Shown: one piece after another, positions 42,001 through 63,000 of the stretch
Numbering within the stretch: the stretch's first letter is position 1
How the letters are laid out: each line of letters opens with the position of its first letter
Assembly: GCA_037379345.1 (NCBI GenBank)
Contig: CM074517.1
Coordinates: forward strand, 1,426,001 to 1,490,000
Length of the DNA: 64,000 bases
Reading direction: 5' to 3'
Origin: Perna viridis
Taxonomy: Eukaryota
Position numbers: made by a program

Positions 42001-45000
42001 TTTTTGTTTAAAATGTTAGAGTTAACAGAAAGTAACATGTGGCTTTTCATAAAACCCTTGTTCTTAATAGATAAACATTATATAGATTGTGTTGTAGAAT
42101 TAAAAATAAAGGGCGATAACTCTGTAAGTGACAACTATATGCAATAGAAACTATGTGAACAGACAGATTAGAATAAATGATCATGAATTTTATCATTAAG
42201 ACCCACAAAAAAACTTTATAACAAAAATAATGTGAACCTTTTGTTGGGTGTCACACATATTACACAGTATGCATGACTCTTACAAATACTACTGCATAAG
42301 AATCCATAAGGTCTTAAGAGCCAACAAATTTTTTTTGAAAACTTTAGCCATAAAAATGGAAAAAAATATTGATTAACAGTAAGTAACAGACCCTGCACAG
42401 TTCTAAATTCTGTATTTAACAATGAAAACAGGTAAGCCAGTGTCAGTAATGTTAATAAAAGGGAGGTAACCACAATCCTTTGGAAACACCACCACACAAT
42501 AAAATATTACCCGGCTCGTACTGAGATATTCCTAATAAGGCTTTCCACGGCTCTGTAGGGCAGGAAAATTTTATAATCAGTATAAACAATCATATGGGAG
42601 ATTTGAAATTTTAGAAATCATGGGGATAGTATCCTGTATAATAAACTTCTGTTTACATTTTATTGATGGTAAAAAAGATAGTGTCTTCAAGCTTTTATCA
42701 AAAGAATGACAAGCACTGAAGCATGGTGATGTTATGAAGTTAGTCCCTAAACCAATAATAAATTCCACAAGCAGCCATGAATATATAAATGATCTTATAC
42801 TATATGACTGAATGGTTGAATCAAGCAACACGGTCACTCATCTATATATGTCAAATATATAATATAAATGATGTCTACTGTAAAATTATATAAAAAATAG
42901 TATTTAAAGAAGTAGCTGCTTCTTATAAAATCTGCAGAAATATACTAAATAAGAAAAAAGTCACAAAGTTATCCTGCAATACATGATTTATTTATAAAAA
43001 CCCCTCATAATCCCAGTTATTTCTAACACTAGAATGGGTACAATGATTTCCTGGCCATTAAGTTATGACGTCAAATTGGTCCTTTACTCAATATTGATGA
43101 ATTTCAACAGGATATTTTATAGCAAGTAATATAATTAACTTCAGGGAATAGAGGCAGTCTTCCTTGGATTAAATGACAATCCCCTGATGTCATTAACTAT
43201 GTAGTTAACTAAACAAGGATATTTAAAGTTCTTATTAAACTTAGATTAAATATCTGATATAAAAGAAAGTTTAAATCTCCTTGTTGATTGTCCAGTTTAC
43301 TACCAAAGGCATTTCATCAGATCCTGATGTTAACTATACTACACGCTGTAAATTTTTGTCACCTTATCTTAATCTCTGATTTACTGTTCTGTATTTTAAC
43401 TATAGGTTGATGCATTTGTTGTGTTTTAACATATCCATACTTTTTTCCTGTAAATTTTGATTGAACAAGATTGCAGGATAACAATATGCAAACAGGAACA
43501 TTAATTTCTGAATCCTGACTCTACAATAGAGACAAAAATCCAGGTTCCCAAATGAACTGGTCTATAAACAGTAAAATCTGTTTCCCAAATAGCATGGTAC
43601 ATCTAGATTACAGCAGGATATGGCTGGATATAATTTGGTACACAAACCTTTAGGAAGACAGAAAGACTCTATTTCTATAACAAAAACATTATAACTAAAA
43701 CAAAAAGGCCAACTTATTGTATTCACAAAATATATAAGGTATTCCTTTTACTAAGTTATAACCTATTTAAGTTTAAATACGATCTAAAATAATAAATTCA
43801 CTTTATCACATGAAGAAACCACCTAATGAAGAGATACCTCATGCCAAATGACAGATAAGTCTATATTGACAGTGTGAGAAAACTTCTTCTACCCCAACCA
43901 GACCAGGTACCTATAGATCATACATACCTTCATTGAAAGACTCCCCTTCATCAAAATCAGGATCAGCCAATCGTGATCGGTTCAAACCATTTAATGTATT
44001 CTGATAAAAAGAAAAGGAATCATATCATTTATTTAAAGAAAAAGAAAAAAAAATCAGTATTCATAAGGATTTTAAATGGGTCACCCAGCACTACCTTGTC
44101 TAACTTTCTTATGGAGAGATTTAATTGATAATGTATAACATCAGGATGAATGTCTCTTTATTTACCTGATAATATGACACTTTCAACAGTGTATATTATT
44201 CTAAGACAATAACTGCCATTCTCAACTACTTCTATATTTCAAGTTGGGTGAATATAAAGGAACTGTTAAAAAGACCATAAACCTTTAAAACAGTTGTAAT
44301 GTTGAGACCTTGGTGTCATAAATGTAATAAGTCTATTGTCTTTCTATTTTAACTCGTAATTACACTTGTTTTTCAGTGTATGATTTGCATGTTTTTTTTT
44401 ATTTCCTGCTCTTTTTTTATGTATGTTTACAGCAAAGGTATAAATTCAACTTCAATTCAGGCGTTCAATACTTTCATGAGTGGAAAGTCCTTGACATTTC
44501 CAAGTTTCAAATCTATGGTCTACTTGAGGAAAATCAAAGTTGACAATTAAGTGTAATTTAAACGGCTGAGGGTCCAGGACTAAGATAAAAAAAATTGTGG
44601 GTCCTGGACTTGGGACCAACACAAATCTGAACCACTGCCTTTATCCTATATCACAACAGCAGAAACCGGTAACATATTTATATTTTTATGTTTAGGTCTC
44701 ACTAACCACTTCTAACGTTTCCATTACTTTACATGTTAAAAAAGTAATTTTCAAAGTCTCACTGTGAATTCCCAGGACAAATGACATCTTAAAGCTGCAT
44801 ACCATTGCGAAGCTTGGAAAATAAGGCTTCCAAAATCATTATGCTAATGGTACAATAATAGTAGAAATTCTTCACAAAATTTACTTGAATAAATAATACT
44901 GAAAATCCACATTTTTACCTGTTCTGCTAACTGACAGCATGGAGGCAAATTACTCACACATGTAAACAATATTCATACACTTTTGTAGTTAATTACATAT

Positions 45001-60000: not shown

Positions 60001-63000
60001 ATATGATTTGGAGTTGTTCTCCCTGTAACTGATGATGTTGGGGTCATACGTCCTGAGATTGAAGACGTTGGGGTCATTCGGCCAGAGATTTGAGATGTTG
60101 GTGTCATGCGACCAGACATTGACACCGGAGTTGTCCTTCCTGATGTTGTATTTGTACGTCGATTACGGGGTGTTGTAGCATATGGATTGTTTAAATCTGC
60201 TGCACTGTTGGAGCGCCCAATTCTACGCCCATATAAATCGTAAAGAGGTTTGTCAAGGTCTGAAAGTTATCACCAGACATAAAACAAACATATTAACAGA
60301 AATAAATGTTATAAAAGGAAGAAAAAGAAAATTAAATTGTACATGTATAAAATTAATAAATTTTAATAGAGTCATAAGGTAAAAGGATACAGAAAAGCAG
60401 CTCTCAGCAATGATTGAACAGAAAAAAAACATATCATTATTACCTGTCTACTTCAGTTCAAACATTTGCAAAATTTTAGATGCAGCAAAACATTATCACA
60501 TTTTTAAGATGCCAAGACTTTCAACCAATTCTGCATGCATTAATTTGACAAATTTCCTTCATTTAAAAAAAAAAAAAAAAAACAATGATGTGTTTTTTAT
60601 CTGCCAATCAATGCTTAGCTTCATGCTAAGAAAGGGTAAAAGTTGAAGAGAAAGGAATACATTAGTATGTGAAAGGCTATAGGCCAAACCACAGCAATAG
60701 CTGGTATGGATGTAAAAGCACTCAACTGATAGCATGTCACATGGGAGTCATGTGATCACCTTACCTTTAGGAGTGTCATCCAAATCTGGACGTGAAAGTG
60801 AAAGAAGAAAGTCAACAGAGTACATGCAAACACAAGCACAAAGGATAAATAAAATGCAGACAATTCAGTGGAAGGGGTTTTTGTCAAAAAATGGGAAATC
60901 TAGACCTATGATGTAAATATAATTTGGGTTAGGGACATAACAATTATCTTTCCAACTCAAATTCTTTCATGCAAATAGTCAAGTATAAGATTAACAGTAG
61001 TACTTTACTTATCACTATGGAAATATATTGATCAATACAAAAATGTGTTCAACTGATCAAGTCTCTCACGAAGGAGATTTTATACAAAGGTGCTTGTCAG
61101 TAAATTTGTTTTCTGTTCTTCAAATCATTTAAAGGTTGATATACTTCTATTATGTATACACATATTGACCCTCCTGAAAGGTAGAATAATCCTGAACCAG
61201 GTAGTATACACCTATTGACCCTCCTGCAAGGTAGAATTATCCTGAACCAGGTAGTTCCTTTTCCCACAGATAAGATATGATGCACACATTCATACTACCA
61301 GGTGCCTATTGCACTGTTAATTAATTCATATGAAACAATTGAAATGATCAACCTTATTAATAATATTTCTAGAGCTCAAAGCTTTGAAGCATACTAGTTA
61401 GGTACCAATTCACTATTGTTAGTTCTCAAAACTTCTGATTCTATTCTACCATTATCTGTATAAATCATAGACTTATGTGGTATACTTCCATAAACAGACA
61501 CCATGTAATTGGACTTATTCAGAAATTCAATTTCAATCCCCATCTTCTTCAAGATTTGCATCATCTAAAGGTATATGTGTAACTGGAAATCAAATTACTT
61601 TACTTCCATTACAATACTATATAAAATATAAATGAGATCTTAACAACGATGAAATAAAAATCAACATTTTTATACAAATATCTTCATCGCCATTTGAAAT
61701 GAGATAATTTTAAAGCATTGGTCAATCAAAGACTACACTAAGATAAATGGTGTCTGTTTTCAGAAACTTTAAATTTTCATGCTAGTATGGACTATAATTT
61801 GATCACTGCCACATGCAAATTTGTCTTTGATACCACCATTTTTTAAAAATAAATAAACCTGTTTACCATTTGTTAAAATCAGTACTTTAAAAATTCATTA
61901 ATTTGAAGACTTACAGCATTGTACAGTTATAATATTATAGAACTCACCACATTAAAATTTAAGCCAATTTTCATCTTGGATTAAAAACCAAATATTGATT
62001 TTAAAAAAAAATGAATATACACATTAAGCATTAAATGTAATTGTGTTTTACCTGCTCCACCTGTATCACTGCTGGCAGAACTAAACTTTGAATGTTTCTT
62101 CTTTCCTATTCTCCTGTAATCAATAAACAGAACATATCCTGGTTATCTCCCTTCACTTCTCATTCAACAAGTCTCGAACATTGAATTCAGAAATATTTTC
62201 TTAAGAAAAAAGACATCTCCTCTAAATAAAATATCATTTCTTGAGGGAAAATAAATAGCCATAGTACTTCAATTTCTGTTGGTTTTTCTAAAACATTAAA
62301 AACAAATTACCATAGAATTCTGTGAAGGAATGCAATTAATTGCCATTACAGTGCATTTTGTTATATTTCTATTTCAGACCATGTTAAAAAAAAATTTGGA
62401 AGATGAACTCTGAAATAAATCAAATAACAGGTTTAGATACATTACAAAATTTTGACGACTTTTTACTAATAGGGCAATAGCCTGCTTACCCTAGGGTACT
62501 TGAGTCAAATCCTCTGTCAGTACTGTGTGATCGAGGTCGTGAGGTCAACCCTTCGGCACTATTTAATGAGTTATTGCTTGAGGATCCACTGAGTTCACCT
62601 CTAATTTGTTTTTGTTTGGCTGGCTCCAAGGAATTTAACAAAGCATCAGCCTGATCTTTAAAATGGTCAGCAAATCCCCAAAAGGCTCTGAAAATAACGA
62701 AGCAGAATTTATATATTTAATCACATATTTAAACCCTATATTTCCTGATTCATATAATTAAAGGTACCAAAACTTGGAAGAAAAAGTCAAAGCTATCACC
62801 ATCATTACATATTTCATTAACTTACTTTTTAGAAAATGCCCTAGCTTAAAGTGAGATCATTCATTAGTAACTTAATTTCTAGAGAATGCCCTCACCTCAG
62901 CGAGAGAGATGATACATTACAAACCTACTTTCTAGAGAATGCCCTCACCTCAGCGAGAGAGATGATACATTTCAAACTTACTTTCTAGAGAATGCCCTAG

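What the first reader, a model, noticed from the sequence alone, without database searches (positions are those of the whole stretch)
42511..60785. Hidden microexon/cassette programme in an invertebrate CLASP
Seen: up to six short frame-preserving, stop-free candidates, each matching its host intron phase: 21 nt (60765), 51 nt (53497), 60 nt (52408), 6 nt (48142), 12 nt (44919) and 42 nt (42511). They fall in the larger introns, and several have UGC motifs in the pyrimidine tract. Known: UGC near the 3' splice site is the SRRM3/4 (eMIC domain) signature of neural microexons, and vertebrate CLASPs carry regulated microexons. Inference: a combinatorial, tissue-specific isoform system that automated annotation would probably miss.
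Basis: partly seen in the sequence, partly recalled or inferred. Interest (0 to 1): 0.72.

Follow-up and report, generated by a model that had tools for sequence, protein, structure and literature searches.

The report
Conserved short alternative exons in mussel CLASP
Five of the six tiny candidate exons are probably real alternative exons of a mussel microtubule-regulator gene (CLASP), shared with scallops and already listed in public annotations of related species, so they are genuine but not hidden.

Summary
The window holds the 3' two thirds of a mytilid mussel CLASP gene on the minus strand, from about 63647 to 36602. It is not human.

**Observation.** Each is flanked by AG and GT, is a multiple of 3 long, and is stop-free in its host intron's phase. 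That criterion alone is weak, because 853 intronic segments meet it.

**Support from relatives.**
- Four candidates (51, 60, 6 and 42 nt) encode peptides that match cassette segments present or absent among predicted CLASP isoforms of Mytilus species and the scallop Mizuhopecten.
- This includes the 6-nt "PK" exon, which lies in the TOG3 HR-D loop.
- The 21-nt candidate sits at the position and phase of a fifth cassette in relatives, but its peptide has diverged. I rate it probable.
- The 12-nt candidate has no support: 0 of 32 relatives carry an insert at that junction.

**Regulatory signals.** UGC within 25 nt upstream of the acceptor is found in 4 of the 5 supported exons and in 3 of 23 other exons (Fisher p=0.008). 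The supported exons also have weaker acceptors.

**Interpretation.** This fits, but does not show, SRRM/eMIC-type control. Tissue specificity is untested. "Missed by automated annotation" is wrong for NCBI models of relatives.

Verdict: a real, conserved cassette set, and a new member of a known kind.

The parts
36602..63647 (-). 3' part of a mytilid CLASP gene, from within TOG2 to the TGA stop. 24 exons before the short cassettes are counted.
   Evidence: tblastn of 15 relatives. Junctions and phases. Pfam on relative P0011 gives the CLASP domain layout.
60765..60785 (-). 21-nt candidate cassette in a phase 1-1 intron. Direct translation is LDDTPK. Probable counterpart of the DLDVEG... cassette of relatives.
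   Evidence: cag|...AAG|gtaagg. Rank 5 of 853. Relatives carry a cassette at this junction in 11 of 30 proteins. Peptide similarity is weak: 4-5 of 844 decoys score higher. No UGC within 40 nt; the nearest is at -43, inside a UGCAUG.
59969..60259 (-). 291-nt exon in the Ser/Thr-rich linker, phase 1-1. It is a cassette in relatives.
   Evidence: Present in 18 of 30 relatives. Phases.
59690..59930 (-). Cluster of five GCAUG motifs 39-275 nt downstream of the 291-nt exon.
   Evidence: This is the only place on the window's minus strand with 5 or more GCAUG per 300 nt. Poisson p=5e-5.
56046..56120 (-). 75-nt exon, phase 1-1. It is a cassette in relatives.
   Evidence: Present in 24 of 30 relatives. 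Junctions.
53497..53547 (-). 51-nt cassette in a phase 0-0 intron, encoding ASSEFEKWYYRLSTPTQ.
   Evidence: 16 of 17 residues identical to the Mytilus cassette, and close to the scallop one. Unique best of 844 decoys. Present in 16 of 30 relatives. 3 UGC within 25 nt upstream, and a weak acceptor.
52408..52467 (-). 60-nt cassette in a phase 0-0 intron, encoding QQKEMESSSSPPTIKPEDIK.
   Evidence: Collinear tblastn hit. Unique best of 844 decoys. Present in 16 of 30 relatives. UGCAG at the acceptor.
48142..48147 (-). 6-nt microexon CCGAAG, encoding PK, phase 0-0, inside TOG3.
   Evidence: Rank 1 of 853. It is the only one of 844 decoys that encodes PK. The same PK insert occurs at the same junction in 11 of 31 relatives, 10 of them scallop, and a 7-residue insert occurs there in 6 Mytilus models. 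The junction maps between residues 142 and 143 of the 3WOZ chain.
44919..44930 (-). 12-nt candidate encoding LAEQ. Unsupported and most likely a decoy.
   Evidence: 0 of 32 relatives have any insert at this junction. Rank 16 of 853, among unsupported decoys.
42511..42552 (-). 42-nt cassette in a phase 1-1 intron. Direct translation is PWKALLGISQYEP.
   Evidence: 13 of 13 residues identical in tblastn. Best of 844 decoys. Present in 23 of 31 relatives.
62052..62113 (-). Exon upstream of the 21-nt candidate, donor phase 1.
55177..55368 (-). Exon with the SKIP (SxIP-type) motif, acceptor and donor both phase 1.
   Evidence: That SxIP is an EB-binding motif is recalled and is also mentioned in a passage of PMC10005782.
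53936..54040 (-). Exon upstream of the 51- and 60-nt cassettes, donor phase 0.
51301..51404 (-). First TOG3 exon, downstream of the 51- and 60-nt cassettes.
49745..49823 (-). TOG3 exon ending ...SHSLK, donor phase 0.
46858..47001 (-). TOG3 exon starting VKSS...
45219..45465 (-). Exon upstream of the 12-nt candidate, donor phase 0.
43928..44000 (-). Exon between the 12-nt and 42-nt candidates, donor phase 1.
40939..40999 (-). Exon downstream of the 42-nt cassette.

Best explanation
**Shown.** The region is part of a mussel CLASP gene. A fifth (21 nt) probably is too. The 12-nt candidate is most likely a chance AG..GT segment.

The cassettes sit in runs of same-phase introns. One run is 1-1-1-1 around the 21-, 291- and 75-nt exons. 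Another is 0-0-0 around the 51- and 60-nt exons. Any combination therefore stays in frame.

**Inferred (function).** The cassettes add short peptides at four kinds of site:
- in the Ser/Arg-rich linker
- directly before TOG3
- in the linker between TOG3 and the C-terminal domain
- in the TOG3 HR-D intra-HEAT loop, where the 6-nt exon adds Pro-Lys one residue after the Ser-Leu pair that Leano and Slep name as positional equivalents of tubulin-binding determinants

The isoforms should thus tune contacts with the microtubule lattice and with partner proteins.

**Inferred (regulation).** Weak acceptors with UGC just upstream suggest that inclusion is helped by a UGC-reading SR-related activator of the Srrm234/eMIC type, probably in neurons. 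I put this regulatory part at about 0.3. The reality and orthology of at least four cassettes I put at about 0.9.
For: - **Gene identity:**
- **Exon model:** phase-consistent throughout.
- **Peptide matches:** the 51-nt candidate is 16 of 17 identical, the 42-nt candidate 13 of 13, the 60-nt hit is collinear, and the 6-nt candidate encodes PK exactly. Each is the unique best of 844 phase-compatible segments.
- **Presence in relatives:** 51-nt 16 of 30, 60-nt 16 of 30, 6-nt-site insert 17 of 31, 42-nt 23 of 31, 21-nt-site cassette 11 of 30.
- **Depth of conservation:** shared between Mytilida and Pectinida.
- **UGC:** within 25 nt upstream in 4 of 5 supported exons against 3 of 23 other exons, Fisher p=0.008. 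The nearest UGC lies at 5-43 nt for the five against a median of 90 nt for the others, MWU p=0.004. 18% of 1150 intronic AGs have a UGC within 25 nt.
- **Splice sites:** acceptor scores are lower than for the other exons (p=0.014) while donors are equal (p=0.93).
- **TOG3 placement:** (model pLDDT 73; 3WOZ, TM 0.71), plus passages of PMC6641166.
Against: - No RNA evidence from this species was available, so alternative use here rests on orthology.
- Relatives' isoforms are mostly predicted models. Combinations of distant cassettes may not be phased.
- The 21-nt candidate's peptide shares only its first residues with the relatives' cassette and is 12 nt shorter, and 4-5 of 844 decoys score higher.
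- The Mytilus 7-residue version of the TOG3 insert has no counterpart in the window.
- Against eMIC control, AG-exclusion zone, pyrimidine content and UCUC counts do not differ significantly (p=0.05-0.23), and the 21-nt candidate has no UGC within 40 nt.
- Most of the UGCs read UGCU or UGCC, which also fit YGCY-type (muscleblind-like) sites. That motif assignment is recalled.
- n=5.
Confidence: 0.8

Rival explanations
1. The cassettes are real, but they are controlled by other splicing regulators or are not neural. Candidates are muscleblind-, PTB- or CELF-type factors reading the U/C-rich UGCU/CUG tracts, and Rbfox. The UGC enrichment would then be part of those sites rather than an SRRM/eMIC signature.
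For: - The tract upstream of the 51-nt exon is a UGCU/CUGCUGCU run, and most UGCs are UGCU or UGCC (sequences printed).
- A cluster of five GCAUG motifs lies downstream of the 291-nt cassette, and a UGCAUG lies 42 nt upstream of the 21-nt candidate.
- eMIC target sets are reported as nearly completely rewired between phyla (PMC8797185, passages).
Against: - UGC abutting the AG (UGCAG at the 6-nt and 60-nt exons), together with weak acceptors, is what is described for nSR100/eMIC targets (PMC4387716 and PMC8797185, passages).
- No GCAUG lies within 200 nt of the 51-, 60-, 6- or 42-nt exons.
Confidence: 0.35
2. All six are chance AG..GT open segments in AT-rich introns, and none is an exon.
For: Several unsupported decoys score as well as or better than some of the picks.
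Against: Four picks are the unique best matches to relatives' cassette peptides out of 844, with 13 of 13 and 16 of 17 identities and an exact PK. They sit at the same junctions and in the same phases as in mussel and scallop isoforms.
Confidence: 0.02
3. In this species some of the segments are constitutive or near-constitutive exons rather than regulated cassettes. The "programme" would then be smaller than it looks.
For: The 42-nt exon is present in 23 of 31 relatives' proteins, and the PK insert is in 10 of 12 scallop proteins. Their acceptor scores (7.2 and 6.9) fall within the range of the other exons.
Against: Each is absent from at least some models or transcript-derived proteins of relatives. 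The 42-nt exon is absent from 7 of 31, and the 6-nt site has no insert in 14 of 31.
Confidence: 0.15

Closest known systems
Predicted CLIP-associating protein isoforms of Mytilus edulis (numbered up to X27), M. californianus, M. trossulus, M. coruscus and Mizuhopecten yessoensis (up to X14) in public protein sets
   Same: They share the same gene and the same junctions. Their cassette peptides are the same or near-identical for the 51-, 60-, 6- and 42-nt exons. The 291- and 75-nt exons are also cassettes in them.
   Different: - The window's species is about 86% identical over HSPs, and 93-98% in clean exons, so it is not one of these species.
- Its 21-nt exon is shorter and diverged from theirs.
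- It lacks the 7-residue Mytilus version of the TOG3 insert.
- It lacks a counterpart of the scallop's 8-residue cassette at junction 54597|54040.
Mouse Clasp2 24-nt SRRM4-dependent neural microexon
   Same: It has the same host gene family, is a very short frame-preserving exon, and has a UGC-type SRRM4 motif upstream with a tunable weak splice context (PMC13174390, passages; PMC4387716, passages; PMC5630039, figure legend naming a neural Clasp2 exon).
   Different: - Dependence on SRRM was not tested here.
- Positional homology with the six candidates is not shown.
- Mouse RT-PCR primers printed in PMC8378409 translate to EEAVAD and SACSER. These flank the junction equivalent to window 54597|54040, which is not one of the six sites. 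The scallop has an 8-residue cassette there and the window has none.
- It is not certain that those primers assay the same 24-nt exon.
eMIC (Srrm234/SRRM3/4) neuronal microexon programmes of flies and mammals
   Same: Weak 3' splice sites and UGC close to the 3' splice site (PMC8797185 and its preprint, passages). Both are seen here.
   Different: - Long AG-exclusion zones and CU-rich tracts are not significantly enriched here.
- Three of the five supported exons are longer than 27 nt.
- Neither neural inclusion nor the regulator was examined.

Membership tests
CLASP (CLIP-associating protein) gene | TOG-domain array with CLASP-type TOG2 and TOG3 and a C-terminal HEAT domain | tested here: met
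   - Single exons hit Mytilus CLASP at E=6e-35, 1e-22 and 1.7e-19.
- Two exons match PDB 3WOZ, the CLASP2 TOG3 structure, at E=5.9e-11 and 4.6e-4.
- The relative P0011 carries Pfam CLASP_N and a TOG domain.
- Single window exons stay below Pfam cut-offs.
CLASP (CLIP-associating protein) gene | Ser/Arg-rich linker with an SxIP-type motif | tested here: met
   Exon 55368-55177 encodes a Ser/Arg-rich stretch with SKIP (ORF). The role of SxIP is taken from a passage of PMC10005782 and from recall.
Frame-preserving cassette exon | AG/GT borders, length a multiple of 3, and no stop in the host phase | tested here: met
   Met by all six. It is also met by 853 intronic segments, so it is necessary but not sufficient.
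Frame-preserving cassette exon | Present in some transcripts or isoforms and absent from others at the same junction | tested here: inconclusive
   In relatives this is met for the 51-, 60-, 6- and 42-nt exons and for a cassette at the 21-nt site. It is not met for the 12-nt site, 0 of 32. No transcript data for the window's own species could be examined.
Microexon (27 nt or less) | Length 3-27 nt | tested here: met
   Met by the 6-, 12- and 21-nt candidates only. The 42-, 51- and 60-nt exons are short cassettes, not microexons, by the definition in PMC13174390 and PMC8378409 (abstracts).
eMIC/SRRM3/4-dependent neural microexons | UGC motif close upstream of the 3' splice site | tested here: met
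   4 of 5 supported exons against 3 of 23 other exons within 25 nt, Fisher p=0.008. The 21-nt candidate fails this, with its nearest UGC at -43.
eMIC/SRRM3/4-dependent neural microexons | Weak 3' splice site, long AG-exclusion zone and CU-rich tract | tested here: inconclusive
   Acceptor scores are lower (p=0.014). AG-exclusion zone p=0.05-0.11, pyrimidine content p=0.19-0.23 and UCUC p=0.13-0.19.
eMIC/SRRM3/4-dependent neural microexons | Neural-enriched inclusion that depends on the eMIC domain | not testable with these tools
   No RNA-seq or perturbation data were available, and the presence of an eMIC-bearing Srrm234 in this species was not examined.
Rbfox-enhanced exon (the 291-nt cassette only) | (U)GCAUG cluster in the downstream intron | tested here: met
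   Five GCAUG within 300 nt downstream, unique in the window. The positional rule is recalled, and dependence is not testable here.

The most novel reading that the evidence does not exclude
The UGC-marked short cassettes may be an Srrm234/eMIC-driven neuronal programme conserved across pteriomorph bivalves. The clearest case would be the 6-nt Pro-Lys exon in the TOG3 HR-D loop next to tubulin-contact positions. CLASP would then be a microexon host in both molluscs and vertebrates. The scallop's 8-residue cassette lies at the junction flanked by published mouse Clasp2 microexon primers, which hints that at least one site could be positionally shared across bilaterians rather than convergent.
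Probability: 0.2. Interest if true: 0.65.

Novelty: new member of a known kind. Interest (0 to 1): 0.35.

Why it matters
The result shows that sequence-only reading can pick true exons as short as 6 nt out of hundreds of decoys. It gives a checked exon and phase map for annotating this mussel's CLASP.

Biologically, a 6-nt exon conserved between mussels and scallops lengthens a TOG3 loop that has been modelled to touch the neighbouring protofilament. That offers a simple, testable way for splicing to tune microtubule rescue.

If the UGC signature reflects eMIC control, it would give a lophotrochozoan test case. My library searches for microexon with Mytilus, and for Srrm234 with microexons and octopus, returned nothing relevant.

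It does not change the picture of alternative splicing in general, and relatives' public annotations already contain these isoforms.

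Tried and rejected
Microexon variants hidden inside clusters, such as the 39-member P0011 cluster, stayed unseen.
- **Third homologue search** with the TOG3 exon brought no species beyond Mytilus. Conservation outside Pteriomorphia is therefore unchecked.
- **The search of protein representatives** was not used. It returns no names, so I could not have excluded human hits.
- **Window counterpart of the Mytilus EIDPP... insert.** The best match, at 49360, has no splice sites. 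A well-scored 15-nt segment at 48737-48723 encodes an unrelated peptide.
- **A better DLDVEG-like exon in intron 62051-60260.** The best match, at 61556, contains a stop and has no donor.
- **Counterpart of the scallop 8-residue cassette in intron 54596-54041.** I listed 17 phase-0 segments. None resembles the scallop peptide, and none from this intron is among the 25 best-scoring of the 853 segments.
- **Other checks.** AG-exclusion zone, pyrimidine content and UCUC counts were not significant. Rfam gave 0 matches. Pfam on single exons gave only sub-threshold hits.
- **LxxPTPh lead for the 51-nt cassette.** Relatives read ...RLPTPTQ, and C. elegans CLS-2 has a divergent LxxPTPh at the end of its S/R region (PMC10005782, passage). 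The window reads ...RLSTPTQ, so the core is not met here.
- **Not available.** No eukaryotic genome DNA collection was on hand, so cross-species intron alignment was not done. Microexon tables in those supplements, which could place the vertebrate CLASP microexons, were not seen.
- **Joined model.** The joined spliced model of the window was not searched or folded. All searches were done exon by exon.

Full report
**What the window is.** GC content is about 0.3 and there are no Ns. Stop-to-stop frames on the minus strand between about 63650 and 36600 carry CLASP-like peptides. One exon (38283-38540, minus strand) hit CLIP-associating proteins at E=6e-35. The hits were from Mytilus edulis (NCBI isoforms X6, X15, X16, X18, X19, X21, X27), M. 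californianus, M. trossulus and M. galloprovincialis, plus unnamed records. Two further single-exon searches added M. coruscus, Tegillarca granosa and thirteen Mizuhopecten yessoensis proteins (twelve of them named NCBI isoforms between X2 and X14). Identity is 83-87% over raw HSPs and 93-98% in clean exons. The window is therefore a mytilid mussel that is not among these records.

**Exon model.** tblastn of relatives and a donor/acceptor search at each junction gave 24 exons from 63647 to the TGA ending at 36602. Phases are mutually consistent for all 20 exons with both ends defined. The host introns of the six candidates have phases 1, 0, 0, 0, 0 and 1. They are 5 of the 6 introns longer than 1210 nt, out of 23.

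**The observation.** The formal criterion is weak, because 853 intronic segments of 3-63 nt satisfy it. A splice-site matrix trained on the gene's 23 other acceptors and donors ranks the picks among the 853:

| Candidate | Rank of 853 |
|---|---|
| 6 nt | 1 |
| 21 nt | 5 |
| 42 nt | 7 |
| 12 nt | 16 |
| 60 nt | 37 |
| 51 nt | 104 |

Other high-ranking segments encode nothing recognisable.

**What they are.** Alignments of relatives' proteins show blocks that are present in some isoforms and absent from others at exactly these junctions (14 proteins, 23 proteins).

| Candidate | Match to relatives' cassette | Carried by relatives |
|---|---|---|
| 51 nt | ASSEFEKWYYRLSTPTQ, 16 of 17 identical to Mytilus and close to the scallop | 16 of 30 |
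| 60 nt | Aligns collinearly with a 20-residue Mytilus cassette and a 23-residue scallop one | 16 of 30 |
| 42 nt | PWKALLGISQYEP, 13 of 13 identical to Mytilus in tblastn | 23 of 31 |
| 6 nt | CCGAAG = PK, the same insert between ...LK and VK... | PK in 11 of 31 (10 scallop, 1 unnamed Mytilus-like); a 7-residue insert in 6 Mytilus models; none in 14 |
| 21 nt | Same junction and phase as a cassette beginning DLDVEG...; only the first residues are shared, and the window's version is 12 nt shorter | 11 of 30 |
| 12 nt | No insert at its junction in any relative | 0 of 32 |

Among 844 phase-compatible segments, the 51-, 60-, 6- and 42-nt candidates are each the single best match to the relatives' cassette. 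The only ties are longer-donor variants of the same acceptor. For the 21-nt candidate, 4-5 of 844 decoys score higher. I call the 21-nt candidate probable and the 12-nt candidate a likely decoy.

The neighbouring 291-nt and 75-nt exons are also cassettes in relatives, present in 18 of 30 and 24 of 30. Mussels and scallops belong to different orders of Pteriomorphia, so these cassettes are old. That the split is Palaeozoic is recalled and comes from no call.

**How it is built to work.** The 21-, 291- and 75-nt exons lie in four consecutive phase-1 introns. The 51- and 60-nt exons lie in phase-0 introns. Any combination therefore keeps the frame. Relatives do use them independently:

| 51-nt and 60-nt usage | Proteins (of 30) |
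|---|---|
| 51 nt alone | 3 |
| 60 nt alone | 3 |
| both | 13 |
| neither | 11 |

**Where the peptides fall.** The domain layout comes from Pfam on a relative. The 21-, 291- and 75-nt exons lie in the Ser/Arg-rich linker, which also holds an SKIP motif. The 51- and 60-nt exons lie just before TOG3. The 42-nt exon lies between TOG3 and the C-terminal HEAT domain.

The two exons flanking the 6-nt exon align to PDB 3WOZ (CLASP2 TOG3) up to chain residue 142 and from residue 144, which puts the junction, by extension, in ...TPSLK|VK.... An AlphaFold model of the scallop TOG3 that carries PK has pLDDT 73 and pTM 0.65 from a single sequence. It places the insert at the end of the loop between helices 116-131 and 138-154. 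That model matches 3WOZ with TM 0.71.

Leano and Slep (PMC6641166, passages) name S781 and L782 in the HR-D loop as positional equivalents of Stu2 tubulin-binding determinants. They also model the extended HR-D loop as touching the neighbouring protofilament. It is my inference from the alignment, not theirs, that the SL of ...TPSLK|VK... is that pair and that Pro-Lys is inserted one residue after it.

**Regulatory signals.**
- UGC within 25 nt upstream of the acceptor occurs 0, 3, 1, 2, 2 and 1 times for the 21-, 51-, 60-, 6-, 12- and 42-nt candidates.
- For the 23 other exons the mean is 0.13, and 3 of the 23 have any UGC there.
- 18% of 1150 intronic AGs have a UGC within 25 nt.
- For the five supported exons, Fisher p=0.008. 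The nearest UGC lies at 5-43 nt, against a median of 90 nt for the other exons (p=0.004).
- Their acceptors score lower (p=0.014) while donors do not differ (p=0.93).
- AG-exclusion zone, pyrimidine content and UCUC counts are not significantly different.

These features fit what is described for nSR100/eMIC targets (PMC4387716, PMC8797185 and its preprint, passages). But n is 5, most of the UGCs are UGCU or UGCC and would also suit other factors, and nothing here tests tissue or regulator.

Mouse Clasp2 does carry an SRRM4-dependent 24-nt microexon (PMC13174390, passages) and a neural exon (PMC5630039, legend). eMIC programmes are reported as almost wholly rewired between phyla (PMC8797185, passage).

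**Comparison and novelty.** The cassettes are members of an ordinary class, frame-preserving alternative exons in a linker-rich cytoskeletal regulator. They are already present in automated NCBI models of relatives, so "hidden" does not hold. Community annotations of M. coruscus (4 models) and M. edulis (1 model) do lack the 6-nt insert. I found no paper on them:
- "microexon" with "Mytilus" returned 2 papers, neither relevant by title.
- "microexon" with "CLASP2" was held by 11 papers (9 listed), none mollusc by title.
- "Srrm234" with "microexons" and "octopus" returned 0.

Supplements were closed, so vertebrate microexon tables were not seen.

**Verdict.** This is a new member of a known kind, and my interest score is 0.35.

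Noticed in passing
window 59690-59930 (minus strand), downstream of exon 60259-59969: Five GCAUG (Rbfox-type) motifs lie at +39, +132, +220, +251 and +275 after the donor of the 291-nt cassette. This is the only place on the window's minus strand with 5 or more per 300 nt (64 of 63700 windows, all here; Poisson p=5e-5), and it is not a tandem repeat. It suggests Rbfox-type enhancement of that exon.
   Followed up: partly
relatives P0022-P0033 (scallop), at the junction equivalent to window 54597|54040: Scallop isoforms carry an 8-residue (24-nt) cassette after ...ADAL that is absent from isoform X10. Mouse Clasp2 RT-PCR primers printed in PMC8378409 translate to EEAVAD and SACSER, which flank this same junction. 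The window's 556-nt intron there shows no convincing counterpart.
   Followed up: partly
window 53497-53547 and relatives' 51-nt cassette: Relatives' cassette ends ...RLPTPTQ at the end of the S/R-rich region. This resembles the divergent LxxPTPh (EB-binding) motif noted at the same place in C. elegans CLS-2 (PMC10005782, passage). The window reads ...RLSTPTQ, so the Pro-Thr-Pro core is not kept here.
   Followed up: partly
window 37209-38179: A 36-nt minisatellite with 26.9 copies at 86% match lies inside the CLASP intron 38303-37101. It gives long spurious open frames on the minus strand.
   Followed up: no
window 1-36600: Retroelement-like open frames: an endonuclease/reverse-transcriptase-like frame at 4106-5937 (-), a 941-residue frame with a zinc-knuckle-like motif that looks like protease and reverse transcriptase at 20900-23725 (+) followed by integrase-like frames to 25628, and others at 30219-32928 (-). 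These labels were assigned by eye and were not searched. There are also a 478-nt x3 tandem repeat at 28573-30005 and a 173-nt x2.5 repeat at 10098-10539.
   Followed up: no
window 61154-61255 and 62819-62998: Short tandem duplications: 50 nt x2 in the host intron of the 21-nt candidate, which accounts for the high-scoring decoy 61223-61170, and 53 nt x3.5 that overlaps the 3' end of exon 63119-62982.
   Followed up: no
relatives P0016-P0019 (M. coruscus) and P0001 (M. edulis CAG): These non-NCBI models look mis-annotated in places. The M. coruscus C-termini run into a repeated peptide instead of the last CLASP exons. P0001 has an unrelated 15-residue stretch where others have the 51-nt cassette.
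   Followed up: no
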